Below, piece by piece: positions 43,837 to 54,918 of a stretch of DNA of 64,000 nt; positions within the stretch are counted from its first letter, which is position 1, and the number at the start of each line of letters is the position of its first letter. Location: positions 83,052-147,051 of the forward strand of contig CALJDU010000006.1 in assembly GCA_938024995.1 (NCBI GenBank), in the 5' to 3' direction. The DNA comes from an uncultured bacterium (GTDB lineage Bacteria > Myxococcota_A > Polyangia > Polyangiales > Houyiibacteriaceae). The position numbers and the translations under genes are program-made. The notes under the pieces were generated by a model. That model was not told the origin of the DNA, ran no database searches, and saw only the letters and a program-made list of their open reading frames with translations.

Positions 43837-43941
43837 TCGCTCCTTCGTCGCTCTTGTTCGTGCTCGCGTGCGTTCGTTTCCTCGTCACTCGCTTCGCTCG
43901 TTTTCGCCAACCCAACCCAACCCAACCTCAACACACAACAC

Positions 43942-44647: not shown

Positions 44648-44650
44648 AAT

Positions 44651-44723: not shown

Positions 44724-44761
44724 CCGGTCGATGGCTGTCATGCAGCCAGCGACCAAAGCAA

Positions 44762-44837
44762 CCGCTTGTCGTCTAACGGTTTAGGACGCTCGTCTGATAC
44801 ACGGGCAATGGAAGTTCGATTCTTCCCAAGCGGACCA
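44762..44837 (+). tRNA. tRNA-Ile (anticodon GAU)
   Basis: ccgcttg/caagcgg acceptor; anticodon arm ctcgt-CTGATAC-acggg; T ggaag-TTCGATT-cttcc; CCA encoded. Confidence 0.6.
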
Positions 44838-44902
44838 TGTTCTGTTCGACGGAACGAAAAACGCGCCGCCGAGGCGACGCGTTCTACGCTCTTCCGAGCC
44901 GC

Positions 44903-45955: not shown

Positions 45956-46039
45956 GTCTAACGATCTCCGAAAACCGGGGATCGAAGCGTCCTCCAAATA
46001 GGTCACGTTGGTTCGATTTGACCTGCTCTGTACAGATTT

Positions 46040-46111
46040 GCTCTCGATGCTCGATGGACGAGCAACCGTCTTCTAAACGGCTCGCTGCGGGTTCGACTCC
46101 TGCCGAGAGCG
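46040..46111 (+). tRNA. tRNA-Arg (anticodon UCU)
   Basis: gctctcg/cgagagc; D gctc/gagc; loop CTTCTAA; T gcggg-TTCGACT-cctgc. Confidence 0.7.
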
Positions 46112-46115
46112 CCGG

Positions 46116-46189
46116 ACCTTCGTGGCTCAAAGGAAGAGCGCGCGTTTCCTAAACGCGTGATGAGAGTTCGAGTCTCTCCGAAGGTGCCA
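46116..46189 (+). tRNA. tRNA-Arg (anticodon CCU)
   Basis: accttcg/cgaaggt; D gctc/gagc; anticodon arm cgcgt-TTCCTAA-acgcg; T gagag-TTCGAGT-ctctc; CCA encoded. Confidence 0.75.
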
Positions 46190-46262
46190 ACGATCTGGTG
46201 GCTCTACGCGCAGCGCTATCGCTTCGCTCACGGGCTTGCTTGCAAGCTCATCAAGTTCTTTA

Positions 46263-46335
46263 CGCCGGGCTCTGGGAAAGCTGGTTGGTTTCCAAATCCG
46301 ACTGCAGGCGAGGTTCAACTCCTCGACTGTGTTTT
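46263..46335 (+). pseudogene. tRNA-Trp-like pseudogene (CCA anticodon loop, degraded acceptor/D-arm)
   Basis: Near-identical to the 46467-46541 copy but with a broken acceptor 3' strand and a T·T in the anticodon stem. Confidence 0.3.
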
Positions 46336-46412
46336 TTGGAGGGTCTGTTCGGACCCTCCCTCCCAACGAACAAGTAGTTGGGAGCCTCCCTCCTACGTTC
46401 GCTTCGCTCAGT
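46333..46412. repeat. Array repeat family copy (hairpin + tail)
   Basis: ttggagggtctgttcggaccctccctcccaacgaacaagtagttgggagcctccctcctacgttcgcttcgctcag. Confidence 0.8.
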
Positions 46413-46466
46413 CGGATTCGCTTCGCTCATGGCTTGCTTGCACGCAGCCGTCAGCACCTTTTACGC

Positions 46467-46541
46467 CGGGCTCTGGGAAAGCTGGTTGGACTCCAAATCC
46501 GACTGCAGGCGAGGTTCAACTCCTCGACGGCGTGCCGCGCT
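46467..46541 (+). pseudogene. tRNA-Trp-like element (anticodon CCA), non-canonical D-arm; possible pseudogene
   Basis: Acceptor acgccgg/acggcgt (6/7 bp); anticodon arm ttgga-CTCCAAA-tccga; T cgagg-TTCAACT-cctcg; no foldable D stem. Confidence 0.3.
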
Positions 46542-46567
46542 CAGATGAGCGTTCCTTTGCAGTGATG

Positions 46568-46636
46568 AGTGGTTCTGGGGAGGGTTCATACCCCTCCCTT
46601 CGTCAGTTCGATTCTGACCGCTGCATCTGAGTTTCT
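46568..46636 (+). pseudogene. tRNA-Met-like element (anticodon CAU) with truncated D-arm
   Basis: Acceptor tgcagtg/cgctgca; 7-bp anticodon helix with loop TTCATAC; T gtcag-TTCGATT-ctgac; 5' half is 4 nt short. Confidence 0.3.
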
Positions 46637-46710
46637 TGGAGGGTCTATCCGACCCTCCCTCCCAACGAGCAAGTAGTTGGGAGCCTCCCTCTTTTGTTCG
46701 CTTCGCTCAG
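46632..46710. repeat. Array repeat family copy
   Basis: ttggagggtctatccgaccctccctcccaacgagcaagtagttgggagcctccctcttttgttcgcttcgctcag. Confidence 0.8.
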
Positions 46711-46847
46711 CGGGTTCGCTTCGCTCACGTCGTGCTCGCTGGCGTCAGCTCGCGAGCAGGAGAGCAAAAAACTGTCGGTCGTTCGTCGACCATGGCGGCA
46801 CGGCGGGCCGTCGCGTGCATCGGTGCGAAAGCAACGGTGCGCGCTTT

Positions 46848-46919
46848 GCCTTTCAAGCGTAGATGGCGACGCCCTCCGCTCGTAACGGGGAGAGCTGGGT
46901 TCAAGTCCCAGGAAAGGCT
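46848..46919 (+). tRNA. tRNA-Thr (anticodon CGU)
   Basis: gcctttc/gaaaggc; D gcgt/acgc; anticodon arm ctccg-CTCGTAA-cgggg; T ctggg-TTCAAGT-cccag. Confidence 0.7.
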
Positions 46920-46926
46920 CTGAGTA

Positions 46927-47003
46927 TTTTGGAGGGGCTGTCCGCCCCTCCCTCCCAACGAACAAGTAGTTGGGAGCCTCCCACCCATGTTCGCTTCGCT
47001 CAA
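46927..47003. repeat. Array repeat family copy (ggagggg-ctgtccg-cccctcc variant)
   Basis: Followed directly by MITE-like element Y (46990-47100). Confidence 0.8.
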
Positions 47004-47110
47004 TATTCTTTGTTCCGCGCCGCCGGCGCTGACGCCGCTCGGTCTTCGCTTCGCTCCGGACCTCGCGCCTACGCGCCTGCTCGGAACCAATATCGTTCGC
47101 TTCGCGAACT
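46985..47110. repeat. MITE-like element Y (reverse-complement copy of 21377-21470)
   Basis: ~95% identity over ~95 bp to the rc of the 21.4-kb copy; imperfect inverted termini. Confidence 0.55.
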
Positions 47111-47254
47111 CGGCGGCGTACTTCTGGAGGGGCTGCCGGCCTTCACCACCACGCGAACTCGCCGCCGTCTTTCGCGTTGCGGTTTTGCTTTGCGGTTTTG
47201 CTTTGCGGTTGCGTCGCATGTCGCCTCAAGCGTTCGTTGCTCTTGCCTCTCAAG

Positions 47255-47325
47255 CGTAGATAGCGACGCGCTTGGCTTGTAACTGAGAGAGCTGGGCGCA
47301 CGTCCCAGGAGAGGCTCTGTTTGTG
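47255..47325 (+). pseudogene. Degenerate duplicate of tRNA-Thr(CGU) (T-loop and anticodon arm mutated)
   Basis: caagcgtagatagcgacgc…agctgggcgcacgtcccagg aligns to 46851-46919, but the T-loop is cgcacgt and the anticodon arm is lost. Confidence 0.3.
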
Positions 47326-47354
47326 TTCGCGTTGCCGCTCGCGGCAACGCTTTT

Positions 47355-47425
47355 GCGGGTGTCGTCTAACGGTAAGACACCGGTCTTCCAAACCGTGAAT
47401 GAGGGTTCGATCCCCTTCTCCCGCT
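47355..47425 (+). tRNA. tRNA-Gly (anticodon UCC)
   Basis: gcgggtg…ctcccgc-T-CC; loop CTTCCAA; T gaggg-TTCGATC-ccctt; close to canonical bacterial Gly-UCC. Confidence 0.65.
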
Positions 47426-47590
47426 CCGATCGCGCCGGGCTTAGCAACTCGGCAGGTGTTCGTGACTCGTTGACTCGCTGAGTTTTTGCGTCTGCGATCA
47501 CTGGGAGCTCTGTTCCTCGCACGGGCGGCGTGCGGGCTTGTGCAGAGTCTCTCTCCTTCGCGCATCCAGCTCACGTTGCGATGCGCCCAT

Positions 47591-47667
47591 GACGCGTTGG
47601 TCTAGTTGGCAAGGACGTCTGATTCTCAATCAGAAGGTCACGGGTTCGATCCCCGTACGCGTCACCA
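47591..47667 (+). tRNA. tRNA-Glu (anticodon CUC)
   Basis: gacgcgt/acgcgtc; D gtc-tagttggcaa-gga (Glu-type D-arm); anticodon arm tctga-TTCTCAA-tcaga; CCA encoded. Confidence 0.75.
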
Positions 47668-47672
47668 AACAT

Positions 47673-47745
47673 ACTGCGTTGCGCATCTGGGATGCGGCTC
47701 GGTTGTCTCCCGAGTGAGACGGGTTCGATTCCCGTACGCAGTGCC
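47673..47745 (+). tRNA. tRNA-Asp (anticodon GUC), copy 1
   Basis: actgcgt/acgcagt; D cgca/tgcg; anticodon arm ctcgg-TTGTCTC-ccgag (U37 unusual); T acggg-TTCGATT-cccgt. Confidence 0.55.
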
Positions 47746-47771
47746 GCGTGAGAGCGCTGTTCGAGATACTT

Positions 47772-47845
47772 GCTGCGTTGTGCATCTGGGATGCAGACCC
47801 ACTGTCTATGGGTTGAGACGGGTTCAATTCCCGTACGTAGCGCCA
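47772..47845 (+). tRNA. tRNA-Asp (anticodon GUC), copy 2 (diverged paralog)
   Basis: gctgcgt/acgtagc; D tgca/tgca; anticodon arm accca-CTGTCTA-tgggt; T-loop TTCAATT; CCA encoded. Confidence 0.55.
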
Positions 47846-47873
47846 CCACGTTCGCAACACGCGAGCAGGGTCT

Positions 47874-47947
47874 ACGGCGATGGTCCAACGGAAAGATCCA
47901 TGGTTGCCAGCCACGAGATAGGGGTTCGATTCCCCTTCGCCGTACCA
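47874..47947 (+). tRNA. tRNA-Gly (anticodon GCC), odd D-arm
   Basis: acggcga/tcgccgt; anticodon arm catgg-TTGCCAG-ccacg; T agggg-TTCGATT-cccct; CCA encoded. Confidence 0.5.
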
Positions 47948-47951
47948 AACG

Positions 47952-48027
47952 TTTTGGAGGGTCAGTCGGACCCTCCCTCCCAACGGCTCTAGTTGGAAGC
48001 CACCCTCCTACGTTCGCTTCGCTCAGA
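47952..48027. repeat. Array repeat family copy
   Basis: ttggagggtcagtcggaccctccctcccaacggctctagttggaagccaccctcctacgttcgcttcgctcag. Confidence 0.8.
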
Positions 48028-48095
48028 GGATTCGCTTCGCTCATCTGCTTGCTCGCAGGGAGCGTGTCACGCGAAGCGTTCGCTGGAGGTTTCTT

Positions 48096-48182
48096 GGAAG
48101 GAGAATCGGCTAGGAGCCGGACTGGATTGCTAATCCATGTGTGCGTCTGTTGGCGCATGGGGATCGAGACCTCTTCCTTCCT
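48096..48182 (+). tRNA. tRNA-Ser-like (anticodon GCU), class II, non-canonical D-hairpin and T-loop
   Basis: Acceptor ggaagga/tccttcc perfect; 5-bp D hairpin cggct-agg-agccg; anticodon arm tgga-TTGCTAA-tcca; variable-arm hairpin tgcg/cgca; T-loop ATCGAGA lacks TΨC. Confidence 0.35.
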
Positions 48183-48187
48183 CCTTT

Positions 48188-48346
48188 TTATTGGAGGGTC
48201 TGTTCGGACCCTCCCTCCAAGTAAGTAAATGACTTGGAGCCTCCCTCCCACGTTCGCTTCGCTCTGTTTTTTGGAGGGTCAATCGGACCCTCCCTCCAAG
48301 TAAGTAAATGACTTGGAGCCTCCCTCCCACGTTCGCTTCGCTCTGA
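48188..48346. repeat. Two tandem copies of array repeat family
   Basis: 48188-48266 and 48268-48346; hairpin loops tgttcg vs aatcg. Confidence 0.8.
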
Positions 48347-48417
48347 CTCGCTCCGCTCGTCTTTGCGTGCTCGCGTGCATGGCAACGTTCGTTCTGGCCT
48401 CGCGAGAGGCAACACTT

Positions 48418-48490
48418 GGTGGTCTCGCACAGGTGTGTCCGCGCGGATGTGACCCGCGTCGGCAACGGGTTCAAGTCCCGCCGATCACCC
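48418..48490 (+). tRNA. tRNA-His-like (anticodon GUG), copy 1; lacks canonical G-1
   Basis: ggtggtc/gatcacc-C; anticodon arm cgcgg-ATGTGAC-ccgcg perfect; T (a)cggg-TTCAAGT-cccg; short D-loop. Confidence 0.4.
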
Positions 48491-48536
48491 CACTGTTCAC
48501 AGTTCACAACTGCTCTCCGAATTTCGGTGAGCACCC

Positions 48537-48607
48537 GGGCCTGTATTTCAACGGGAGAATGCTTGTTTCGCACGCAGGCGATGAGGGTTCGATTCCCTCC
48601 TGGTCCA
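48537..48607 (+). tRNA. tRNA-Ala (anticodon CGC) with G3·U70
   Basis: gggcctg/ctggtcc gives G3·U70 (the Ala identity pair) and U6·U67; D gttc/gaat-like; loop TTCGCAC; T gaggg-TTCGATT-ccctc. Confidence 0.6.
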
Positions 48608-48650
48608 CTGTCGCTTCGTCGCTCGCGTCGAAGCGAAGTTCGTTTCACTT

Positions 48651-48724
48651 GGTGGTCGCGCACAGGTGTGTCCGCGCGGATGTGACCCGCGTCGGCGTTC
48701 GGGTTCAAGTCCCGCCGATCACCC
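48651..48724 (+). tRNA. tRNA-His-like (anticodon GUG), copy 2
   Basis: Same structure as 48418-48490 with point differences; no CCA. Confidence 0.35.
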
Positions 48725-48863
48725 CGGGCTCTTCGGAGTCAACCTCAGGCTGAGGGCTCAGTAGGGAGCTTCCCGATTTGGACTCGGGCGGTGCAGGTGC
48801 AACTCCTGTCAGCTTGACCGGTGCGCCGCGTCTTCGTTCGACGAGATGCGGTGCGCTTGATCC

Positions 48864-48936
48864 TGGGCATGTAGTTCAACGGGAGAATGTCTGTCTTGCA
48901 CACAGCGGATGAGGGTTCGATCCCCTCCTTGTCCAC
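48864..48936 (+). tRNA. tRNA-Ala (anticodon UGC) with G3·U70
   Basis: gggcatg/cttgtcc; compensatory C5-G68 to A5-U68 change versus the CGC paralog; loop CTTGCAC; T gaggg-TTCGATC-ccctc. Confidence 0.6.
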
Positions 48937-49129
48937 CGGTTTTCTAGGGTCTTTTTTCGAAGACCCTCTCCGCTTCGCGGATTCACCCAAAACGTTCGCT
49001 TCGCTCTCTGCGCGCCCGCGTTAGCCAAAAGTCGTCCGCTCTGGTCGCAGCGCTCCCGGCGCTCCAGACGTTTTGGCGTCGCGGAGCTTGCTGTCTCAAT
49101 CTGTTGGGTCGTCTTCGAAAGACCCGTTT

Positions 49130-49200
49130 GCCCTTGCAGCACGATGGTCGTGCACTCCTCCGGTACAGGAGCGGAACGGGTTCGATTCCCGTCGAGGGCT
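49130..49200 (+). tRNA. tRNA-Thr (anticodon GGU)
   Basis: gcccttg/cgagggc; D gcac/gtgc; anticodon arm ctcct-CCGGTAC-aggag; T acggg-TTCGATT-cccgt. Confidence 0.65.
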
Positions 49201-49205
49201 CCGTG

Positions 49206-49284
49206 TTTTTTGGAGGGGCTGTCCGCCCCTCCCTCCAAACGAGCAAGTAGTTTGGAGCCTCCCTCCCATGTTCGCTTCGCTCAG
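49206..49284. repeat. Array repeat family copy (start of 240-bp tandem unit)
   Basis: ttggaggggctgtccgcccctccctccaaacgagcaagtagtttggagcctccctcccatgttcgcttcgctcag. Confidence 0.8.
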
Positions 49285-49366
49285 TATCGTTCGCTTCGCG
49301 AACTCGGATCCGTCTTTCGGGTTGCCTGGTTCGCCGGGCTGCAGGGGCAGAGCGTTCTCTGCTCTC

Positions 49367-49438
49367 GCGGGGTTTGTAGTCTGGGACTGCGCCACTCTTA
49401 CAAAGTGATTCAGCAGGGTTCGATTCCCTGACTCCGCA
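49367..49438 (+). tRNA. tRNA-Val (anticodon UAC), copy 1
   Basis: gcggggt/actccgc; D gtag/ctgc; anticodon arm ccact-CTTACAA-agtga; T caggg-TTCGATT-ccctg. Confidence 0.7.
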
Positions 49439-49602
49439 CCGCTGTGCTTTTGGAGGGGCTGTCCGCCCCTCCCTCCAAACGAGCAAGTAGTTTGGAGCCT
49501 CCCTCCCGTGTTCGCTCAGTATCGTTCGCTTCGCGAACTCGGCTCCGTCTTTCGGGTTGCCTGGTTCGCTGGGCTGCAGGGGGCAGAGCGTTCTTCGACT
49601 TC

Positions 49603-49674
49603 GCGGGGTTTGTAGTCTGGGACTGCGCCACTCTTACAAAGTGATTCAGCAGGGTTCGATTCCCTGACCCCGCA
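49603..49674 (+). tRNA. tRNA-Val (anticodon UAC), copy 2 (tandem duplicate)
   Basis: Identical to copy 1 except acceptor accccgc (perfect pairing); part of a ~240-bp tandem repeat. Confidence 0.7.
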
Positions 49675-49863
49675 CCGCTGTGTTTTTGGAGGGGCTGTCC
49701 GCCCTCCAAACGACTCTAGTTTGGAGCCTCCCTCCCATGTTCGCTTCGCTCAGTATCGTTCGCTTCGCGAACTCGGCTCCGTCTTTCGGGTTACCGGGTT
49801 CGACGGCCGCGCGGGAGCAGAGCGCTCCTCGACTTCGTCCTTCGTCGCTCTCTTCGTCTTCTT

Positions 49864-49938
49864 CTGGGCCTGTAGCTAAGCGGGAAAGCAGCCGGCTTTT
49901 AACCGGCAGATCGTGAGTTCAAATCTCACCGGGCCTAC
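49864..49938 (+). tRNA. tRNA-Lys (anticodon UUU)
   Basis: gggcctg/cgggcct; anticodon arm gccgg-CTTTTAA-ccggc; T gtgag-TTCAAAT-ctcac; CCA encoded. Confidence 0.7.
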
Positions 49939-49944
49939 CAATAA

Positions 49945-50020
49945 ATACTCTCGAAGCTCAACTGGATGAGCGCTCGGCTACGGACTGAGAGGGTGCAGGT
50001 TCGACTCCTGCCGAGAGTGC
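49945..50020 (+). tRNA. tRNA-Arg (anticodon ACG)
   Basis: actctcg/cgagagt; D gctc/gagc; anticodon arm ctcgg-CTACGGA-ctgag; T gcagg-TTCGACT-cctgc; CCA encoded. Confidence 0.8.
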
Positions 50021-50093
50021 CATGTCTCTTTACCCAAGTAAGCGGAGCAAGCAAGAAGGCGAGTCACGCGAAGACGTCAGCCCAGTTCGCGAA

Positions 50094-50180
50094 GCGAACG
50101 ATACTGAGCGAAGCGAACATGGGAGGGAGGCTCCAAACCATTTACTTGTTTGGAGGGAGGGGCGGACAGCCCCTCCAGAA
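50094..50180. repeat. Array repeat family copy, inverted orientation
   Basis: gagcgaagcgaacatgggagggaggctccaaacc…ggagggaggggcggacagcccctccag. Confidence 0.75.
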
Positions 50181-50186
50181 AGCATT

Positions 50187-50259
50187 GTGCTGGAGTACAG
50201 GCGCGACCGTCTCGGCTGCAACCCGATATGTGTGAGTTCAATTCTCACCCAGCACTCCA
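50187..50259 (+). tRNA. tRNA-Cys (anticodon GCA)
   Basis: gtgctgg/ccagcac-T-CCA; loop CTGCAAC; T gtgag-TTCAATT-ctcac; compact D region. Confidence 0.55.
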
Positions 50260-50260
50260 A

Positions 50261-50334
50261 GCTCCCATAGTGAAACGGAATCACGCTGGTCTCCGAAACC
50301 GGTAGTCCAAGTTCGAGCCTTGGTGGGAGTGCCA
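50261..50334 (+). tRNA. tRNA-Arg (anticodon CCG)
   Basis: gctccca/tgggagt; D gtga/tcac; anticodon arm ctggt-CTCCGAA-accgg; T ccaag-TTCGAGC-cttgg; CCA encoded. Confidence 0.7.
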
Positions 50335-50351
50335 ATCACGCAGTGAATTAA

Positions 50352-50421
50352 CGCTATGCGCCGCGGCCGGCAGACGCCTCTCATACGGGCGAGCTCGAAG
50401 GTTCAACTCCCTCCATAGCGA
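50352..50421 (+). tRNA. tRNA-Met (anticodon CAU), weak D-arm
   Basis: cgctatg/catagcg perfect; anticodon arm cgcct-CTCATAC-gggcg; T-loop TTCAACT. Confidence 0.45.
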
Positions 50422-50453
50422 CTGGGTCTCCGGACCTTAACATCCGAGTGTAG

Positions 50454-50530
50454 CTCAGCCTGGAAGAGCACACCGTTCGGGACGGTGAGGTCGCAGGTTC
50501 GGATCCTGTCACTCGGACCATTCTATCCGC
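50454..50530 (+). tRNA. tRNA-Pro (anticodon CGG)
   Basis: Fully canonical: ccgagtg / gctc-agcctggaa-gagc / caccg-TTCGGGA-cggtg / gcagg-TTCGGAT-cctgt / cactcgg-A-CCA. Confidence 0.85.
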
Positions 50531-50565
50531 GTCGCAAACATCACTGGCGTCGCGAGCACGTCGAT

Positions 50566-50660
50566 GAGCGAAGCGAATCCGCTGAGCGAAGCGAACATGG
50601 GAGGGAGGCTCCCAACTACTTGCTCGTTGGGAGGGAGGGGCGGACAGCCCCTCCAAAAAG
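50566..50660. repeat. Array repeat family copy, inverted orientation
   Basis: gagcgaagcgaatccgctgagcgaagcgaacatgggagggaggctcccaactacttgctcgttgggagggaggggcggacagcccctccaa. Confidence 0.75.
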
Positions 50661-50665
50661 CACAG

Positions 50666-50741
50666 CAGGGTGAAGTCTTGTCGGGAAGACGCTCGTCTGG
50701 GAGGCGAGAGGTTGCTGGTTCAACTCCAGCCACCCTGACCA
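50666..50741 (+). tRNA. tRNA-Pro (anticodon GGG)
   Basis: cagggtg/caccctg; anticodon arm ctcgt-CTGGGAG-gcgag; T gctgg-TTCAACT-ccagc; CCA encoded. Confidence 0.8.
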
Positions 50742-50746
50742 ATTTG

Positions 50747-50820
50747 GTTTCCATAGTGAAAAGGAATCACACGAGCTTGCGGAGCTCGCATTCTAGGTTC
50801 GAGTCCTAGTGGAAACGCCA
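50747..50820 (+). tRNA. tRNA-Arg (anticodon GCG)
   Basis: gtttcca/tggaaac; D gtga/tcac (same D-arm as Arg-CCG); anticodon arm cgagc-TTGCGGA-gctcg; T ctagg-TTCGAGT-cctag; CCA encoded. Confidence 0.7.
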
Positions 50821-50881
50821 ATCGAGCCTGCTCGAGTCGACGCACGCTTGGAGAGAGCCGGCGAGCATGAGAGCAAGCTGC

Positions 50882-51050
50882 TCGCTGATGCGGACTAGGG
50901 ACGCGCAAAGCGCGAACCGAAGGGAGCATCAATCACGCGGCGCGATGGGGGTGAATGCCGAAGGCAGAGGGGGGAACGCCCTGCAAGCGGTCGTGGTGAT
51001 GCGGACAAGGTACGCGCAAAGCGCGAACCGAAGGGAGCATCGCGCACTGC
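50882..51050. repeat. Two direct ~50-bp repeats (gatgcggac.agg.acgcgcaaagcgcgaaccgaagggagcatc) separated by ~70 bp
   Basis: 50882-50931 and 50999-51049 differ at about 3 positions. Confidence 0.6.
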
Positions 51051-51124
51051 CGCGCGCAGCAGAGCGAAGCGAACGGCGGGAAGCGCGAAGCGCTGGGGTC
51101 TGCGACTCAGACCCCATAGATTTA

Positions 51125-51205
51125 GCCTAGGTGGCGGAACGGTTTACGCAGCGGTCTCAGACTCCGTGCCCTCAAGGGATGCAGGTTCGACTCCTGTCCT
51201 AGGTA
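51125..51205 (+). tRNA. tRNA-Leu (anticodon CAG), class II
   Basis: gcctagg/cctaggt; 3-bp D stem gcg/cgc; loop CTCAGAC; variable-arm hairpin ccc-tcaa-ggg; T gcagg-TTCGACT-cctgt; A73. Confidence 0.6.
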
Positions 51206-51337
51206 CCGCGCTCAGCGATGAGCGTTACACGATCGAAATGGTTCGGTCGTGGTCAGTCGCGCTCGGATCCTCTCCGAGCCGATGCTGTTCGCGTTTGCGA
51301 GCGGCGCCATTTGGCGCGCGCGTGACCACGTGCGCGC

Positions 51338-51880
51338 ATGAAACGCGCAAACCGCGCGAGGAGGTGGCCCATGCGCACGCTCGTACTGGACCAAGGTTAC
51401 CAACCGCACCGCATCGTCTCCTGGGAGAAGGCGGTCACCATGCTCTACGTCGGAAAGGCCGACCTCGTGGAGCACTACGACGACGAGATCCGCTCGACCA
51501 GCATGACGATGTTCATGCCGGCGGTCGTTCGGCTCACCCGCGGGCTCAAGTACCGCAAGAAGTCGATCAAGTTCTCGCGGCTCAACGTCATGATGCGTGA
51601 CGGATTCTCCTGCCAGTACTGCGGCACCGAGATGAAGATGCGCGACCTCACGTACGACCACGTCCTGCCGCGCGCGCGCGGAGGGAAGACCACGTGGACG
51701 AACATCGTGACCGCGTGCCGTGACTGCAACGAGCAGAAGGCCGACCGCACTCCGAAGGAGGCAGGGATGCCCCTTCTGAAGAAGCCCATCAAGCCGCTCT
51801 GGCTGCCGACAGGATCGTTTCACGTAGACGACCTCCGGCTCCCCGAGACCTGGCGGAACTGGGTGTCGTGGGCTGCCTAA
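51338..51880 (+). CDS. HNH endonuclease
   Basis: HNH motif YDHVLPRARGGKTTWTNIVTACRDCNEQK (His-Asn-His plus a Cys zinc finger); sits inside the tRNA array. Confidence 0.75.
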   Translation: MKRANRARRWPMRTLVLDQGYQPHRIVSWEKAVTMLYVGKADLVEHYDDEIRSTSMTMFMPAVVRLTRGLKYRKKSIKFSRLNVMMRDGFSCQYCGTEMKMRDLTYDHVLPRARGGKTTWTNIVTACRDCNEQKADRTPKEAGMPLLKKPIKPLWLPTGSFHVDDLRLPETWRNWVSWAA

Positions 51881-51928
51881 AGCAGCACTTGTTCTCGCTC
51901 GCTTGAGCTTGTCTCGAGCGAGCATCCA

Positions 51929-52002
51929 CACCACTGTGGCCCAACTGGAAGAGGCGTCTGACTAAGGATCAGAAGGTTGTGAGTTCGAATCTCACCAGTG
52001 GT
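51929..52002 (+). tRNA. Class-I-length tRNA with Leu anticodon AAG and A73 (unusual)
   Basis: accactg/cagtggt; D gcc(c)/ggc; perfect anticodon arm tctga-CTAAGGA-tcaga; 5-nt variable loop; T gtgag-TTCGAAT-ctcac. Confidence 0.5.
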
Positions 52003-52006
52003 ACCG

Positions 52007-52079
52007 AACCATCGTGGCCCAACGGAAGAGGCACCTGTTTCAAACTCAGGGTGTTGTGAGTTCGACTCTCACCGATGGT
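52007..52079 (+). tRNA. Class-I-length tRNA with Leu anticodon CAA and A73 (paralog of previous)
   Basis: accatcg/cgatggt; same D-arm; anticodon arm cctgt-TTCAAAC-tcagg (U·U closing pair); T gtgag-TTCGACT-ctcac. Confidence 0.45.
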
Positions 52080-52087
52080 ACCGATTA

Positions 52088-52400
52088 CTTGGGGGGATTT
52101 TTCGATCCCCCTCTCTCCCGTTGGTCGACTCACCCCAAACGTTCGCTCCGCTCTGGCTGCGCGCGAAGTGCGCGCCGCTCCTCGACCGGTCGCTTTGCTC
52201 CCCATCTCGTTGCGTCACCACGTCGCTTGCTCTTGTTTCCTAAGGGGATTTTTCGAGACCCTTCTCGGCTTCGCCGATTCATCCCAAACGTTCGCTTCGC
52301 TCTGCTGCGCACACAAATGCGCGACGCTCTCTTCGGTCAGCGCTTTGCGCTTCCCTTGTCGTGTCACCAATTGTGTTTGCTTCATGCTTGCTCGCTCGTC
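52088..52400. repeat. Two ~150-bp direct repeats of hairpin + conserved tail (ggggattttcgatcccc… / ggggatttttcgagaccc… …ccaaacgttcgct(c/t)cgctctg(g)ctgcgc)
   Basis: 52088-52240 and 52245-52400 share ~70% identity, including the palindromic head and acgttcgcttcgctc tail. Confidence 0.6.
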
Positions 52401-52515
52401 TCTGCACCTTTGGTGCGTTCGACTTGCTTTGCGGCTCCGAAACTACGCGTCGCATTCCGCGGCGCTTCGCGTTCGTGTTCTTTCTGTTGCCGCGGGTGGA
52501 CGCGAACGTGAATCT

Positions 52516-52599
52516 CGAAGGTAATTTGATCTGGAGATCAACGCCGCCTTGAAAGCGGAGGGAGCCGAGAGGCTTGGAGTTCAATTCTTCTACCTTCGG
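52516..52599 (+). tRNA. tRNA-Ser (anticodon UGA), class II with unusual 5-bp D-hairpin
   Basis: cgaaggt/accttcg perfect; D hairpin tgatc-tgga-gatca; anticodon arm ccgc-CTTGAAA-gcgg; variable hairpin gcc-gaga-ggc; T-loop TTCAATT. Confidence 0.45.
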
Positions 52600-52604
52600 C
52601 AAGT

Positions 52605-52688
52605 GGAAGAGGATCTGATCCGGGATCAGGGCCGAGTGGAAATCGGTGCGCGCCTTCTCGGCGTGGGGTTCGACTCCTCTCTCTTCCT
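52605..52688 (+). tRNA. tRNA-Ser (anticodon GGA), class II with unusual D-hairpin
   Basis: ggaagag/ctcttcc perfect; D hairpin ctgat-ccggg-atcag; anticodon arm ccga-GTGGAAA-tcgg; 6-bp variable hairpin cgcgcc/ggcgtg; T gggg-TTCGACT-cctc. Confidence 0.45.
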
Positions 52689-52859
52689 CCCTTCCCAACA
52701 ACAACCGTCGCGAGCCCTCGCGCGGCAGCCACCGCGGAGCGAGCGTTCAAACACCAAAGCGAAGCGACGTGTTTGGACTGTCGCGGAGCGGGCGAACGAA
52801 TGTGAGCGTGGGTGAATGCGCGAAGCGCAGAGGGGCGCAATCGCCCCTTCAAACAACAT

Positions 52860-52947
52860 CGAAGACAAACTGATCTGGGATCAGGCCTGCCTCGAAAACA
52901 GTGCGCGCCTTGATCGGCGTGAGGTTCGATTCCTCTGTCTTCGGCCA
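52860..52947 (+). tRNA. tRNA-Ser (anticodon CGA), class II with unusual D-hairpin
   Basis: cgaagac/gtcttcg-G-CCA; D hairpin ctgatc-tggg-gatcag; anticodon stem ctg(c)/(a)cag with compensatory C-G to U-A change versus the GGA paralog; loop CTCGAAA; T gagg-TTCGATT-cctc. Confidence 0.45.
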
Positions 52948-53060
52948 CTGCCCGCGGAGCTCGGCAACGAGACCTGCAAGAGCTCCTCCCGTCACTCGCG
53001 GTTCACCGGCACCTCATCAGGTCCGGTCGCTTCGCACCCACGCGCTCATCTGCGCTCTTT

Positions 53061-53137
53061 GTCCTTGTCGTCTAATGGTTCAGGATTTTCCGGCTTTCAA
53101 CCGGTGGATGCGGGTTCGAATCCCGCCGGGGACGCCA
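53061..53137 (+). tRNA. tRNA-Glu (anticodon UUC)
   Basis: gtccttg…cggggac-G-CCA; D gtct-aatggttc-agga; loop CTTTCAA; T gcggg-TTCGAAT-cccgc; closely matches the E. coli Glu pattern. Confidence 0.8.
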
Positions 53138-53188
53138 TTCTCATCGCGCCATCGCGCATCACTTTTCACCGCTCACCTTGAGGTCGTC

Positions 53189-54589
53189 ATGGAATCGCTC
53201 GTCCACGCCGCGCCGACTGAGGTGCGCAAACGAAATGAACACACGTCCCCAGAGTCGCGCGTCGCGCTTTACGCGGCGATCGGCAGCCCGCGTTCCATTC
53301 TCAGAGCGCGACCCACAACGGAAGAGCGACGGATCGAAGACGCGGAAGTGGTCTCGGCCGCCGCGCGTGTGTCCCCCAAGTTCCTCGCTGCCCACGCGCT
53401 CGCCTCGCGCGCGCTCGGGGAGTCTTCCCGTGCGCCCGCGCTCTTGTGCGCGCTCCTCTCTCATCGGGATCCGGCTCTCCTCGCGGAGGTCTTCCCATGC
53501 GTCATCAATACGCCCGCGCTCGTGCGTCGCTTCGTCGGCGTTGTGCGCTCGGGCGTGAGCGGTCGTCGCTCGCTCGGGAGCGCGCCGAAACGCTTGATCG
53601 CGCGTTGGCTGCGATCGCTGTCAGACGACGCGGTGCTGACGAACGGCGCGAAGCTGCGCGACGTGATCCGCTTGTCTCATCCGCGACCTCGGTCCCGTGC
53701 CCGTGCGGCGCTGTATCGGCTTCTGCTCTCACGTCCATACGATGCCCATCGCTTGCCGAGATTGGCGAGCATGTGGGTCGCGTCCCAGAGCGGTGGCGAT
53801 ATCGACGAGCTCCCGCTCTCGCTCTGTCGCGTTAAGAAGGTCGGGATCCGCGCTCCGAGCGAGTATCTCCCTGCAGTCGCGCGAGCGTCTGCGCATGAGC
53901 TCGTGACGTCGCTCGATTGGCTGCGCGGGTTCGCCGACGACGCGCTCGTGGCCGCGGTCGCGACGCGACTTCGTGAGGCACGGGCCGAAGATGTGCGTCC
54001 CTACGCGCTGCTCCGTCTCCTTCGCGCGACGAGCTCACCCCGCGAGTGGGTGGACGCTGGGTTTTCACTTCTCGATCGCGCGAGTGAACGATCGAGCGAG
54101 GTTCGCGGGACGCTCGTCGTGGACACGAGCGCTTCGATGACCGCGCCCCTCTTCGCTACGCGAGGTGAGCGTCGAGATCCGATCGATGGACTGGATGTCG
54201 CGGCGCTCCTCATGACGACCCTCCGGGGACCTCATTTGCACGTGGTCGACTTCGCGGGTCGCCCGCTCTCGTCCGAGGGCGGCGTCCAAGATGTTCGCGG
54301 TCGTCTGGGGAATCTCCTCAGCTCGCCGCGTTCTGTCTCAAGCGCGATCGAGCAGCGGAGCGGAGAAATGATCGTGGTCACCGACGACGTCGGCTCGGAG
54401 CGCGCCTTGGCGCGTCTTGGTCAACGTCATGGCGCCGCGCTCAGCGTCGTCGACCTGTGCCCGACGAGCGTGGGTCAAGTGGCCGTCCGCTCCACCCGTT
54501 TCGCGGGTTTCAACGACATCTCGCTTCAGGTCCTGATGGACCGCGCCCAGCAAAAGACCTCTGTCCAGGAGGCCCGCTGGGCGTCTTAA
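53189..54589 (+). CDS. rsr: Ro60/TROVE-domain protein with C-terminal vWA domain (Rsr, Ro sixty-related RNA-binding protein)
   Basis: Recalled TROVE-like motifs: GRRSLGSAPKRLIARWL resembles GWGRGLR.AVA.WY, and NGAKLRDVIRLSHPRP resembles GWSHRDLLRLAHPKP. C-terminal MIDAS motif in LVVDTSASMTAP. Start ATG 53189 (an alternative TTG at 53177); the longer ORF 52901.. overlaps the tRNAs. Confidence 0.65.
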   Translation: MESLVHAAPTEVRKRNEHTSPESRVALYAAIGSPRSILRARPTTEERRIEDAEVVSAAARVSPKFLAAHALASRALGESSRAPALLCALLSHRDPALLAEVFPCVINTPALVRRFVGVVRSGVSGRRSLGSAPKRLIARWLRSLSDDAVLTNGAKLRDVIRLSHPRPRSRARAALYRLLLSRPYDAHRLPRLASMWVASQSGGDIDELPLSLCRVKKVGIRAPSEYLPAVARASAHELVTSLDWLRGFADDALVAAVATRLREARAEDVRPYALLRLLRATSSPREWVDAGFSLLDRASERSSEVRGTLVVDTSASMTAPLFATRGERRDPIDGLDVAALLMTTLRGPHLHVVDFAGRPLSSEGGVQDVRGRLGNLLSSPRSVSSAIEQRSGEMIVVTDDVGSERALARLGQRHGAALSVVDLCPTSVGQVAVRSTRFAGFNDISLQVLMDRAQQKTSVQEARWAS

Positions 54590-54706
54590 ACACCTCACGT
54601 CTCTTTTCCGTCGCGCCGCCCGCGATGGCTTGGATCCGCGTGAGTCACTTGAGAGCACTCCTGGATGGCGTTGAGATCGCGCCCGTGCTAATCCCGTCCC
54701 CGATTT

Positions 54707-54780
54707 TCCGGAGTCGTCTAATGGCAGGACAGCGGACTTTGAATCCGTGAATGGTGGTTCGAATCCACCCTCTGGAACCA
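54707..54780 (+). tRNA. tRNA-Gln (anticodon UUG)
   Basis: U1-A72 acceptor tccggag/ctctgga-A-CCA; anticodon arm gcgga-CTTTGAA-tccgt; T ggtgg-TTCGAAT-ccacc. Confidence 0.8.
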
Positions 54781-54918
54781 AACCCAGCGCGAACCTCGCG
54801 CTGGGTCTTTTAATGGCGTGGTGTCTTCTCATGGCGTGCTTGGGCCAGCGTCCGCTTTGGCGGAGAGATTCGCTTCGTGAATCGCGACGTGTAGACTTAG
54901 CGCAGGAGGCTCTCTTTC

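What the first reader, a model, noticed from the sequence alone, without database searches (positions are those of the whole stretch)
53061..54790. Ro60/TROVE-vWA (Rsr) gene embedded in the tRNA array, with a candidate Y-RNA-like locus downstream
The 466-aa protein carries TROVE-like motifs (…KLRDVIRLSHPRP…; GRRSLGSAPKRLIARWL) and a C-terminal vWA MIDAS motif (VVDTSASM). This is the architecture of bacterial Rsr. Rsr proteins are known to partner with Y RNAs, and these frequently contain tRNA-like modules and sit next to rsr. Here rsr is bracketed by tRNA-Glu(UUC) 52 nt upstream and tRNA-Gln(UUG) 118 nt downstream. The 117-nt ORF-free gap at 54590-54706 contains a GC-rich imperfect inverted repeat (gcgatggcttggatccgcg … ctcctggatggcgttgagatcgc) and is a reasonable Y-RNA candidate. 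Some of the odd tRNA-like elements could alternatively be Ro ligands. An Rsr placed inside a tRNA array suggests an RNA surveillance or tRNA-processing module carried by the island.
Basis: partly seen in the sequence, partly recalled or inferred. Interest (0 to 1): 0.8.

Follow-up and report, generated by a model that had tools for sequence, protein, structure and literature searches.

The report
Divergent Ro60 gene in tRNA array
A real but very divergent Ro60 (Rsr) RNA-binding protein gene sits near the end of a phage-type array of about 41 tRNA genes in a myxobacterial chromosome, but the Y RNA proposed next to it is not supported.

Summary
A 466-aa ORF (53189-54589, +) lies 51 nt after tRNA-Glu(UUC) and 117 nt before tRNA-Gln(UUG), at the 3' end of a same-strand tRNA array.

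Pfam and NCBIfam do not recognise the protein. It is still a Ro60/Rsr homologue. Its nearest relatives are TROVE+vWA_Ro60 proteins (E 3e-37). A family profile matches D. radiodurans Rsr (E 1.5e-36). The AlphaFold model matches only Ro60 structures.

It is an orphan on a long branch. It is at most about 37% identical to any full-length protein among 1.84 billion cluster representatives. It has lost 39 of 94 positions that are invariant in its relatives, including two MIDAS loops.

The array matches phage tRNA arrays in gene order and in its HNH endonuclease (52-58% identical). Of 78 viral Ro60 loci, 53 have tRNAs within about 6 kb, and 463 of 464 of those tRNAs are on the Ro60 strand. In 26 of 37 tRNA-bearing loci, YrlA/YrlB-like RNAs lie near the Ro60 gene.

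No Y RNA is detectable in the window. Rfam YrlA/YrlB/Y_RNA and two custom models, run without filters, found only tRNA junctions. The 117-nt spacer has none of the defining motifs.

Verdict: a new, divergent member of a known cassette. The Y-RNA part is unsupported. Interest is moderate.

The parts
43596..54780 (+). Long tRNA array. ARAGORN finds 34 tRNA genes, all on the + strand. About 7 more divergent tRNA-like genes bring the total to roughly 41 in 11.2 kb and cover all 20 amino acids.
   Evidence: ARAGORN. Rfam. Manual reading of orphan T-arms. GC is 0.61 against 0.64-0.65 in the flanks. The best terminator-like sites bracket the array, at 43044-43067 and 54782-54806.
51338..51880 (+). 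HNH homing-endonuclease gene between tRNA-Leu(cag) and tRNA-Leu(aag). It is a hallmark of mobile tRNA arrays.
   Evidence: Pfam HNH_5/HNH. phrog_16726, E 1e-36. It is 52-58% identical in protein, and 66-71% in DNA over about 430 nt, to HNH genes beside tRNA-Leu in viral loci L016/L023/L024/L026/L033. It is 47-51% identical to the HNH of Myxococcus phage Mx1.
53061..53137 (+). tRNA-Glu(UUC), with CCA encoded. Its 3' processing would create the 5' end of the Ro60 mRNA.
   Evidence: ARAGORN. Rfam tRNA, 49.3 bits.
53138..53188 (+). 51-nt leader with a GAGG Shine-Dalgarno-like sequence 5 nt before the ATG.
   Evidence: Sequence. The only YrlA-model hit near the gene, 53090-53190, scores 16 bits with E 7.7 and is noise driven by the tRNA T-arm.
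53189..54589 (+). Divergent Ro60/Rsr homologue of 466 aa. Residues 1-300 form a helical TROVE-like ring. Residues 305-455 form a vWA-like domain with an incomplete MIDAS motif.
   Evidence: phmmer hits to TROVE+vWA_Ro60 proteins, E 3e-37 to 3e-19. Family profile against PDB 2nvo Rsr, E 1.5e-36. AF2 pLDDT 78.8. The top 10 Foldseek hits are all Ro60, at E 8e-11 to 2e-8, and the next hit is E 0.018. phrog_850, E 3.4e-7. No Pfam or NCBIfam hit. Long-branch evidence.
54590..54706 (+). It is most simply the 3' UTR and inter-tRNA spacer, with two local hairpins at about 54594-54644 and 54663-54699.
   Evidence: Fold z = -0.99. No Rfam hit at E<=10. No hit of models R1 or R2 with filters off. No GNCGAAN0-1G motif. 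No GAAYGY..RACTAY signature.
54707..54780 (+). tRNA-Gln(UUG), the last gene of the array. It has a U1-A72 pair and an encoded CCA.
   Evidence: ARAGORN. Rfam, 63.2 bits. It is 85-89% identical over 52-55 nt to the terminal tRNA-Gln(UUG) of viral arrays L033, L024 and L048.
54782..54812 (+). Intrinsic-terminator-like hairpin (11 bp, 8 of them G-C) followed by CTTTT. It is the likely end of the array transcript.
   Evidence: Top-ranked site in the terminator scan.

Best explanation
The gene encodes a highly divergent member of the Ro60/Rsr family. It belongs to a horizontally acquired, phage-type long tRNA array. The cassette holds about 41 tRNA genes, an HNH homing endonuclease and Ro60 as the last protein gene, followed by tRNA-Gln(UUG). 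It sits in the chromosome of a Polyangiales (Myxococcota) bacterium about 5 kb from dnaA.

Shown:
- the Ro60 homology and fold;
- the homology of the cassette with phage arrays;
- the absence of any recognisable Y RNA.

Inferred, expression: the gene is transcribed with the tRNAs. Its mRNA would be cut out by tRNA 3' processing of tRNA-Glu and RNase P cleavage at tRNA-Gln. It is translated from the GAGG/ATG start. The spacer hairpins act as 3'-UTR ends rather than as a Y RNA.

Inferred, ancestral role: in the phage cassettes, Ro60 works with Y RNAs encoded in or beside the array. By analogy with the Ro60-Y RNA-PNPase and rsr-yrlBA-rtcBA systems, the complex would act as an RNA quality-control, decay or repair module. 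It would accompany a large load of foreign, often non-canonical tRNAs.

Inferred, this copy: the Y RNA genes are gone. The protein keeps its RNA-binding core: the basic GRRSLGSAPKR helix, the His that aligns with X. laevis H187, and PYxL. It has lost the MIDAS loops and many other invariant residues. The 466-codon frame is intact despite about 70% divergence. I therefore think it is still a working RNA-binding ring with altered partners, probably acting directly on misfolded or unprocessed array transcripts. I rate this about 0.65, against about 0.3 for a decaying relic.
For: Ro60 identity:
- 18 relatives at E 3e-37 to 3e-19, nearly all with PF05731+PF25045.
- Family profile against Rsr 2nvo, E 1.5e-36.
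- AF2 model, pLDDT 78.8.
- Foldseek top 10 hits are all Ro60/Rsr, TM 0.57-0.65, and the next hit is E 0.018.
- phrog_850, E 3.4e-7.
- H164 aligns with X. laevis H187. H187S abolishes Y RNA binding (PMC11277228).

Phage-type cassette:
- HNH is 52-58% identical to HNH genes at the same place in viral arrays.
- The order is shared...Arg(acg)/Cys/Arg(ccg)/Met/Pro(cgg)...Leu x3 + HNH...Ser...[Ro60]...Glu(ttc)-Gln(ttg)-end.
- Myxococcus phage Mx1 has a TROVE protein, an HNH gene between two tRNA-Leu genes, and tRNAs in one region.
- Streptomyces phage Wofford carries a 'Ro-like RNA binding protein' among tRNAs.
- 53 of 78 viral Ro60 loci have tRNAs within about 6 kb, and 463 of 464 tRNAs are on the Ro60 strand.
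- L-arrays with a linked HNH gene and RNA-processing neighbours are described in PMC8421152.

Host and setting:
- DnaA is 71-73% identical to Sandaracinus/Polyangiales MAG proteins.
- The flanks hold ordinary metabolic genes.

No Y RNA:
- Rfam scans.
- R1 and R2 with filters off give at most 20.9 bits, all at tRNA T-arms or tRNA-tRNA junctions.
- The motif scan finds nothing in 64 kb.
- Positive controls work: YrlA at 71 and 69.5 bits beside canonical rsr, and Yrl RNAs in 26 of 37 tRNA-bearing phage loci.

Still coding:
- GC by codon position is 0.72/0.54/0.74.
- An SD-like sequence precedes the ATG.
- The alignment stays in frame along its whole length.
Against: - No Pfam or NCBIfam hit to the protein itself.
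- 39 of 94 family-invariant columns are lost, against 0-7 in every other member.
- The protein is 50-120 aa shorter than its relatives.
- It is an outlier in the tree, at mean distance 0.79 against 0.50 among the others. There is no closer relative among 1.84e9 representatives.
- These points also fit a decaying gene.
- Co-transcription, mRNA processing and any RNA ligand are inferred. There are no expression data.
- No promoter-like site was found.
- Phage origin rests partly on IMG/VR contigs whose viral nature I did not verify beyond Mx1 and the cultured actinophages.
- A Y RNA could be encoded elsewhere in the genome, or be of an unknown type.
Confidence: 0.62

Rival explanations
1. This is a working Rsr-Y RNA particle whose Y RNA is transcribed from the 117-nt gap 54590-54706, or is one of the odd tRNA-like elements.
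For: - Y RNAs normally lie within 4 kb of rsr on the same strand (PMC4201824).
- The gap is ORF-free and contains a 51-nt bulged hairpin.
- The His that aligns with the Y-RNA-binding H187 is conserved.
- In a Myxococcales MAG (L086), Y-like RNAs really are tRNA-shaped.
- The folding z-score cannot exclude the model. A likely genuine Y-like RNA in L086 scores only z = -1.22.
Against: - The gap has no GNCGAAN0-1G motif, no T-, D- or AS-like hairpins and no GAAYGY..RACTAY signature.
- No Rfam YrlA/YrlB/Y_RNA hit at E<=10.
- No R1 or R2 hit in the gap with filters off.
- The same models detect Y RNAs in the control loci.
- All odd tRNA-like elements are 70-88 nt with ordinary anticodon loops (Ser-UGA, Cys, His, Trp, Met-like). 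None has an inserted Ro-binding helix.
Confidence: 0.05
2. The Ro60 ORF is a decaying relic. The array was captured from a phage. The tRNAs, or nothing at all, are under selection, and the Ro60 gene, having lost its Y RNA partners, is drifting towards loss.
For: - 41% of family-invariant positions are lost, including the MIDAS Thr and Asp loops and the ASWQxTRMNLNTF block.
- The protein is truncated at both the N-terminal region and the vWA domain.
- Its branch is far longer than that of the neighbouring HNH gene relative to the same phage homologues.
- It is an orphan with no close relatives.
- No Y RNA is present.
- The array also holds clearly degenerate elements, such as a dead copy of tRNA-Thr at 47243-47342.
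Against: - Neutral drift to about 30% identity should have broken a 466-codon frame. The frame is intact and aligns end to end without frameshifts.
- The retained residues cluster in the RNA-binding motifs.
- The codon-position GC pattern and the SD-like site are gene-like.
- AF2 gives a confident Ro60-like fold.
- The sequence is identical in three samples.
Confidence: 0.28
3. The gene is the host's own housekeeping rsr, and the tRNA array is the host's native tRNA operon, with no link to phages.
For: - The locus lies in a normal chromosomal setting, with chorismate-binding enzyme, RuvC and DnaA genes nearby.
- By raw similarity the top full-length hit, P0002, is a bacterial rsr in an rtcR/rtcA/Hen1 context.
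Against: - Canonical bacterial rsr loci, including two Myxococcota MAGs (L086, L096), have no tRNA arrays. At least L086, L088 and L089 carry YrlA/YrlB-like RNAs or rtc genes.
- The window's HNH gene, tRNA order and Ro60 position match the phage arrays.
- The array has lower GC than its flanks.
- The array contains many non-canonical tRNAs.
- Related Polyangiales dnaA regions show no such array within 10 kb.
Confidence: 0.05

Closest known systems
Bacterial Ro60 orthologue Rsr (D. radiodurans Rsr, PDB 2NVO; S. Typhimurium rsr-yrlBA-rtcBA operon)
   Same: Same protein family and fold. A HEAT-repeat ring is closed by a vWA domain. The basic GR+SLGSxP+R helix, the HPxP histidine, and the PYxL, DxSxSM and DVAAL motifs are conserved.
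   Different: - No Y RNA within 64 kb.
- No rtcR/rtcB/rtcA neighbours.
- The gene is embedded in a tRNA array.
- The MIDAS Thr and Asp loops are deleted.
- It is about 50 aa shorter.
- 41% of family-invariant positions are lost.
- Pfam models do not recognise it.
Phage Ro60 homologues: 'Ro-like RNA binding protein' of cluster C mycobacteriophages and cluster BE Streptomyces phages; Myxococcus phage Mx1 TROVE protein WNM70118; Thermus phage phiLo Ro60, PDB 9KOP/9L5Y
   Same: - The Ro60 gene lies on the same strand as, and among, many tRNA genes.
- An HNH endonuclease lies beside tRNA-Leu genes.
- Ro60 is near the 3' end of the array, before Gln(UUG).
- The phiLo protein is among the best structural matches.
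   Different: - The phage proteins are 43-94% identical to one another but only 28-34% to the window protein.
- Many phage arrays also encode YrlA/YrlB-like RNAs, and phiLo Ro60 binds two phage Yrl RNAs and host PNPase (PMC12135203). The window has none.
- The window copy sits in a bacterial chromosome with no phage structural genes nearby.
[quoted passage not shown] 2021; 'tRNA array units', Tran et al. 2015; Morgado & Vicente 2018)
   Same: - More than 20 same-strand tRNA genes at more than 2 per kb.
- The tRNAs are supernumerary and partly non-canonical.
- An HNH homing endonuclease is linked.
- There are signs of horizontal origin.
- RNA-processing genes lie in the neighbourhood.
   Different: None of the papers I could search links Ro60/TROVE with the term 'tRNA array'. 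The host phylum, Myxococcota, is absent from the top-ranked tRNA-array papers I listed (occurrence counts). I did not read them in full.
YrlA/YrlB bacterial Y RNAs (Rfam RF02553, RF02565)
   Same: Only the location matches: an ORF-free stretch on the rsr strand, right after the gene and flanked by tRNA-like sequence.
   Different: The spacer lacks every defining element: the GNCGAAN0-1G motif, the T-like, AS and D-like hairpins, and the terminal Ro-binding stem sequence. It scores nothing with the covariance models.

Membership tests
Ro60/Rsr (TROVE + vWA_Ro60) | Match to Pfam TROVE (PF05731) and vWA_Ro60 (PF25045) models | tested here: not met
   hmmscan of the 466-aa protein found 0 families at E<=1, and NCBIfam found 0 at E<=10. 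Even canonical relatives have only 'faint' TROVE hits.
Ro60/Rsr (TROVE + vWA_Ro60) | Significant full-length sequence homology to established Ro60/Rsr proteins | tested here: met
   phmmer E 3e-37 to 3e-19 to 18 proteins, 12 of them carrying PF05731 together with PF25045 and all 18 carrying PF25045. There are 406 hits at E<=1e-10 among 1.84e9 representatives. The family profile matches 2nvo Rsr (E 1.5e-36), human Ro60 (2e-24) and X. laevis Ro60 (1.4e-22). phrog_850, E 3.4e-7.
Ro60/Rsr (TROVE + vWA_Ro60) | Fold: alpha-helical HEAT-repeat ring closed by a vWA alpha/beta domain | tested here: met
   AF2 pLDDT 78.8, pTM 0.68, with helices to residue 300 and then an alpha/beta domain. The top 10 Foldseek PDB hits are all Ro60/Rsr at TM 0.57-0.65. 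This is a predicted model, not an experimental structure.
Ro60/Rsr (TROVE + vWA_Ro60) | Complete MIDAS motif, DxSxS...T...D | tested here: not met
   DTSAS (D312, S314, S316) is present. The GGGGT loop is deleted and SDNESW is reduced to VTD--D.
Ro60/Rsr (TROVE + vWA_Ro60) | Conserved Y-RNA-binding histidine (X. laevis/mouse H187) and adjacent basic helix | tested here: met
   H164 in RLSHPRP aligns with RLSHIKP H187. The role of H187 is taken from PMC11277228. GRRSLGSAPKR aligns with GMWGRALRKAV.
Ro60/Rsr (TROVE + vWA_Ro60) | Partner Y RNA gene within about 4 kb on the same strand (Chen et al. 2014) | tested here: not met
   Rfam scans. R1 and R2 with filters off. Motif scan. Positive controls work.
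Ro60/Rsr (TROVE + vWA_Ro60) | RNA binding, and association with PNPase or other exonucleases | not testable with these tools
   This needs purified protein, RIP-seq or pull-downs.
YrlA/YrlB Y RNA (for spacer 54590-54706) | 5' GNCGAAN0-1G Ro-binding motif | tested here: not met
   The regex finds no hit in 54590-54706. The nearest intergenic hit on the + strand is 52791.
YrlA/YrlB Y RNA (for spacer 54590-54706) | tRNA-like module: T-like, acceptor-like and D-like hairpins | tested here: not met
   The T-arm scan finds no + strand T-arm-like hairpin in the spacer; its only hit there is a weak 4-pair minus-strand match at 54579-54595 over the stop codon. The MFE structure is two plain hairpins.
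YrlA/YrlB Y RNA (for spacer 54590-54706) | Covariance-model score | tested here: not met
   No Rfam YrlA, YrlB or Y_RNA hit in the spacer at E<=10. R1 and R2 with filters off give no hit in the spacer.
YrlA/YrlB Y RNA (for spacer 54590-54706) | Conserved structure with covariation across relatives | not testable with these tools
   No related copy of this locus exists in the collections. Only identical contigs were found.
Long tRNA array (L-array / tRNA array unit) | At least 20 tRNA genes at 2 or more per kb, in the same orientation | tested here: met
   34 tRNAs from ARAGORN plus about 7 divergent ones in 11.2 kb, all on the + strand.
Long tRNA array (L-array / tRNA array unit) | Linked HNH homing endonuclease | tested here: met
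   ORF 51338-51880, Pfam HNH_5/HNH.
Long tRNA array (L-array / tRNA array unit) | Horizontal origin | tested here: inconclusive
   For: homology and synteny with viral arrays, lower GC, and no array near dnaA in two relatives. Against a firm call: no empty site, integrase or att sites were identified.

The most novel reading that the evidence does not exclude
This chromosomal Ro60 has swapped RNA partners. It lost the YrlA/YrlB genes that related phage arrays place between their tRNAs, and its sequence changed radically. It may now act on the array's own transcripts. The most specific version is that its ligands are the 13-14 copies of an array-specific double-hairpin RNA. That element follows tRNA 3' ends, shows compensatory base changes between copies, and occurs nowhere else in the window or in 95 other loci. 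If so, this would be a previously unknown class of Ro60 ligand.
Probability: 0.1. Interest if true: 0.7.

Novelty: new member of a known kind. Interest (0 to 1): 0.4.

Why it matters
For this locus, the result corrects an attractive but unsupported call of a Y RNA. It reclassifies the gene as part of a phage-type tRNA-array cassette, captured by a myxobacterial chromosome and now much altered.

More broadly, the comparison set shows that Ro60 genes in phages are typically built into tRNA arrays: 463 of 464 nearby tRNAs are on the same strand. Y-like RNAs are often interleaved with the tRNAs at spacings of a few nucleotides. This suggests they mature by the tRNA-processing machinery. I found no paper stating this in the searchable library.

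If the window protein is active without a Y RNA, it offers a natural experiment on what the Ro60 ring does on its own.

Tried and rejected
1. Pfam, NCBIfam and PDB phmmer on the single protein gave no hits. Homology had to be shown through relatives, a profile and the fold.

It returned 7 canonical rsr loci, none in a tRNA array (only L093 has two opposite-strand tRNAs nearby). The window's own genome is not in that collection.

3. Rfam at gathering threshold on 12 loci showed only tRNA and tmRNA hits in the 150 rows printed. Phage Yrl RNAs score below the YrlA gathering cut-off, so they had to be found with E-value thresholds and custom models.

4. Six viral loci without tRNAs gave no Rfam hit at E<=0.1.

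5. The folding-energy z-score was rejected as a test. It was -0.99 for the spacer, but only -1.22 for a likely genuine Y-like RNA.

6. Orphan T-arm hairpins were examined as possible permuted tRNA-like Y modules. They turned out to be divergent His, Cys, Trp, Ser or Met-like tRNAs.

7. Weak full-length model hits were rejected: 48552-48652 (17.9 bits), 52809-52850 (11.6 bits) and 52310-52368 (10.3 bits). Phage short forms score 33-46 bits.

8. A synteny check at dnaA in two relatives found no conserved neighbourhood, so no empty site could be defined.

9. Cluster look-ups gave no organism names. Taxonomy was inferred from DnaA homologues.

10. Three papers on Ro60 structure and reviews were not held.
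Full report
**1. What is there**

The window carries a same-strand array of tRNA genes from 43596 to 54780. ARAGORN finds 34. Rfam and manual reading of orphan T-arm hairpins add about seven divergent ones:
- Ser(UGA) at 52517-52599;
- Cys(GCA) at about 50187-50256;
- His(GUG) twice;
- Trp(CCA) twice;
- a Met-like element.

Together the array covers all 20 amino acids.

The ORF in question is 53189-54589 (+), 466 aa. It lies 51 nt after tRNA-Glu(UUC) and 117 nt before tRNA-Gln(UUG), the last gene of the array. A GAGG sequence sits 5 nt before the ATG. The best terminator-like hairpin of the region follows tRNA-Gln directly, at 54782-54806. Gene callers produced the identical 466-aa product on three metagenome contigs.

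**2. Is it Ro60?**

There is no Pfam family at E<=1, no NCBIfam family and no PDB sequence hit. The homology is nevertheless solid.
- A search of 5.8 billion proteins returns 18 relatives at E 3e-37 to 3e-19 and 28-35% identity. Nearly all carry TROVE (PF05731) and vWA_Ro60 (PF25045).
- A profile of these sequences matches D. radiodurans Rsr (2nvo, E 1.5e-36), the Thermus phage phiLo Ro60, and human and Xenopus Ro60 over nearly the full length.
- The AlphaFold2 model has pLDDT 78.8. It is helical to residue 300 and alpha/beta after that.
- Its ten best Foldseek matches in the PDB are all Ro60/Rsr structures (E 8e-11 to 2e-8, TM 0.57-0.65). The eleventh match is at E 0.018.
- PHROGs gives phrog_850 'RNA-binding protein' at E 3.4e-7.
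- The quoted motifs fall on the family's most conserved columns. The His of SHPRP aligns with X. laevis H187, whose mutation abolishes Y RNA binding (PMC11277228).

**3. It is an unusual member**

- Among 1.84 billion cluster representatives, no full-length protein other than itself is more than about 37% identical, and only short fragments reach 40-56% over 100-190 residues. The best E-value is 5e-31.
- 94 alignment columns are invariant in its 17 nearest relatives. It keeps 55, substitutes 31 and deletes 8. Each other full-length member, left out in turn, loses 0-7.
- The losses include the GGGGT and SDNESW loops that supply the MIDAS Thr and Asp, and the ASWQxTRMNLNTF block.
- In a distance tree it joins no group. 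Its mean distance to the others is 0.79, against 0.50 among them.
- The frame is intact over 466 codons, and GC by codon position is gene-like at 0.72/0.54/0.74.
- Drift to about 30% identity would be expected to break the frame. I therefore read this as changed constraint rather than simple decay, though decay is not excluded.

**4. The surroundings identify the cassette**

The window outside the array holds ordinary chromosomal genes, including a chorismate-binding enzyme, RuvC and DnaA. DnaA is 71-73% identical to proteins of Sandaracinus and Polyangiales MAGs. So the host is a myxobacterium.

Inside the array lies an HNH endonuclease gene, 51338-51880 (Pfam).

A scan of IMG/VR found 80 loci with Ro60 homologues. 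Among the 78 distinct ones:
- 53 have at least one tRNA within about 6 kb;
- 38 have three or more;
- 24 have tRNAs on both sides;
- 463 of 464 tRNAs are on the Ro60 strand.

A subset (L016, L023, L024, L026, L030, L033, L050) shares the window's order. It runs through a Leu(aag/cag/caa) block with an HNH gene, then Pro(ggg) and Ser, then Ro60 as the last protein gene. The array then ends with Glu(ttc)-Gln(ttg).

The window's HNH protein is 52-58% identical to theirs, and 66-71% at the DNA level over about 430 nt. Its tRNA-Gln is 85-89% identical to theirs.

Cultured phages show the same theme:
- Myxococcus phage Mx1 has a TROVE protein, a vWA protein, a peptidyl-tRNA hydrolase, and an HNH gene between two tRNA-Leu genes in its tRNA region.
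- Of the phage records matched, 121 are Streptomyces phages, and those listed annotate a 'Ro-like RNA binding protein'. In phage Wofford the gene lies among tRNAs.

The phage Ro60 proteins are 43-94% identical to one another but only 28-34% to the window protein. The HNH distances are comparable throughout. The Ro60 gene has therefore evolved much faster than its neighbour.

The array fits the published 'L-array' or 'tRNA array unit' concept. These are long, horizontally spread arrays with a linked HNH homing endonuclease and RNA-processing genes nearby (PMC8421152).

**5. The Y RNA question**

Chen et al. (PMC4201824) define YrlA by four features:
- a 5' GNCGAAN0-1G motif;
- T-like, acceptor-like and D-like hairpins;
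- a terminal stem;
- a location within 4 kb of rsr on the same strand.

They warn that tandem tRNAs give false positives.

Positive controls worked.
- Rfam YrlA scores 71 bits, plus two weaker copies, between rsr and rtcB in a Stenotrophomonas genome.
- It scores 69.5 bits beside the window protein's best full-length relative.
- In a Myxococcales MAG, rsr is followed by a YrlB-like RNA. Two 118-123-nt tRNA-shaped RNAs follow it. Their anticodon-arm position holds a GCGAAUGC...GGACUAC Ro-binding helix.

I built two covariance models. R1 came from four bacterial YrlA sequences, and R2 from 33 hits.
- R1, which had seen no phage sequence, found Y-like RNAs in many viral loci, all on the Ro60 strand.
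- R2 found 66 hits at E<1e-3 in 26 of 37 tRNA-bearing loci.
- In L024, seven such RNAs sit between tRNAs with spacers of 1-6 nt. Rfam's own YrlA model confirms two of them, at 48 and 34 bits.

In the window, nothing comparable exists.
- Rfam over 42000-57000 (E<=1) and over 52690-55000 (E<=10) gives only tRNAs. The one YrlA hit, at 16 bits and E 7.7, overlaps the T-arm of tRNA-Glu.
- R1 and R2 with filters off over 42500-56500 peak at 16.9 and 20.9 bits. Both peaks are on tRNA-tRNA junctions, the known false-positive type. Neither model hits 54590-54706.
- The composite signature GAAYGY(3-14 nt)RACTAY is absent from all 64 kb on both strands. It is present two to four times in each of L024, L086, L088 and L089.
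- The spacer folds into two local hairpins with an unexceptional energy (z = -0.99). That statistic is weak evidence either way, because a likely genuine Y-like RNA gives -1.22.
- No related copy of the locus exists, so covariation cannot be tested.

The Y-RNA candidate is therefore unsupported. A novel type of ligand RNA cannot be excluded.

**6. How it most likely works**

Shown:
- the family and fold of the protein;
- its position inside a phage-type tRNA array;
- the loss of recognisable Y RNA genes and of the MIDAS loops.

Inferred:
- The gene is transcribed with the tRNAs and released by tRNA end-processing.
- The spacer hairpins are ordinary 3'-UTR or spacer structures.
- In the ancestral phage cassette, Ro60 plus array-encoded Y RNAs form an RNA surveillance, decay or repair module. 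This is by analogy with Ro60-Y RNA-PNPase (PMC12135203) and rsr-yrlBA-rtcBA.
- That module accompanies a burst of foreign tRNAs.
- In this chromosomal copy, the protein keeps its RNA-binding core but has changed partners. It probably acts directly on misfolded or unprocessed array transcripts. Several of these are non-canonical tRNAs.

**7. Novelty and score**

Ro60 in phage genomes, phage Y RNAs, tRNA arrays and their HNH genes are all known. I did not find two things described: a myxobacterial chromosomal array carrying the cassette, and this orphan Ro60 lineage. No held paper combines 'tRNA array' with Ro60 or TROVE.

I class the finding as a new, aberrant member of a known kind, with moderate interest (0.4). 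The most novel reading still open is that the array-specific double-hairpin repeats are the new ligands (13 aligned copies, compensatory changes). I rate it at about 0.1.

Noticed in passing
window 43679-50660; for example 46925-47016, with inverted copies at 50091-50182 and 50569-50660: A double-hairpin repeat specific to the array. Thirteen copies align: GGAGGGKC-loop-GMCCCTCC, then CTCCMAAY-9 nt-RTTKGGAG, then CCTCCCTCCCATGTTCGCTTCGCTCAG. Four of 16 base pairs show compensatory changes between copies. The GGAGGG..CCCTCC hairpin occurs 14 times, all inside the array, and 9 of them start 5-11 nt after a tRNA 3' end. It occurs nowhere in the 52 kb of flanks or in 95 other loci. Its function is unknown; it could be a processing signal, a small RNA or a MITE-like element.
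   Followed up: partly
window 52517-52599, about 50187-50256, about 48417-48490, 48651-48723, 46259-46332, 46460-46533, about 46551-46630: Seven divergent tRNA-like genes that ARAGORN missed: Ser(UGA), Cys(GCA), His(GUG) x2, Trp(CCA) x2 (95% identical duplicates), and a Met-like(CAU) element. The anticodon arm of the Met-like element is itself a GGAGGG..CCCTCC hairpin. With these, the array covers all 20 amino acids.
   Followed up: partly
window 52515-52599, 52605-52690, 52860-52947: The three Ser tRNAs have 6-bp D stems and score better with the Rfam tRNA-Sec model than with the tRNA model. One scores 53.3 bits, above the tRNA-Sec gathering cut-off. Their anticodons are UGA, GGA and CGA, which are Ser and not Sec.
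   Followed up: partly
window 48939-49007, 52086-52154, 52235-52303: A second spacer repeat family of three copies. Its hairpin stem differs between copies (7, 5 and 8 bp), while the TTTTCGA loop and a CCCAAACGTTCGCTYCGCTCT tail are conserved (sequence).
   Followed up: no
window 47243-47342: A degenerate copy of tRNA-Thr(cgt), 77% identical to 46846-46945. Its T-loop is destroyed (GGGCGCACGTCCC), which shows decay inside the array.
   Followed up: no
window 44903-46006 (- strand): An opposite-strand gene inside the array. It encodes a lipoprotein-like signal, a collagen triple-helix repeat and a fibrinogen C-terminal-like domain (Pfam Collagen E 4e-11, Fibrinogen_C E 1.6e-5).
   Followed up: partly
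L024 42-2233; also L034, L047, L050, L054, L010, L022 and others: In phage tRNA arrays that carry Ro60, YrlA-like RNAs (about 105-140 nt) and YrlB-like RNAs (about 60-75 nt) are interleaved with tRNAs at spacings of 1-6 nt, all on the Ro60 strand. There are 66 hits at E<1e-3 in 26 of 37 loci. Rfam's YrlA model confirms two in L024, below its gathering score. This suggests Y RNAs are matured by tRNA-processing enzymes.
   Followed up: partly
L086 6552-7165 (Deltaproteobacteria/Myxococcales MAG, JACKEN010000003.1): Downstream of a canonical rsr lie a YrlB-like RNA and two 118-123-nt RNAs with full tRNA topology: acceptor stem, D arm and T arm. Their anticodon-arm position is replaced by a closed Ro-binding helix (GCGAAUGC...GGACUAC). 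Repeated partial units lie between them.
   Followed up: partly
L018 5446-5522, L027 and L036 5477-5548, L059 2952-3043, L016 8084-8176: Several phage arrays carry suppressor-like or odd tRNAs close to the Ro60 gene. They include anticodon CUA ('Pyl', amber), UUA (ochre) and 8-nt anticodon loops.
   Followed up: no
window 54780-60089: The array ends only about 5.3 kb upstream of dnaA (60089-61504), with RuvC at 56182-56676 in between. A large foreign tRNA array therefore sits close to dnaA, where the replication origin would usually lie (position inferred, oriC not mapped).
   Followed up: no
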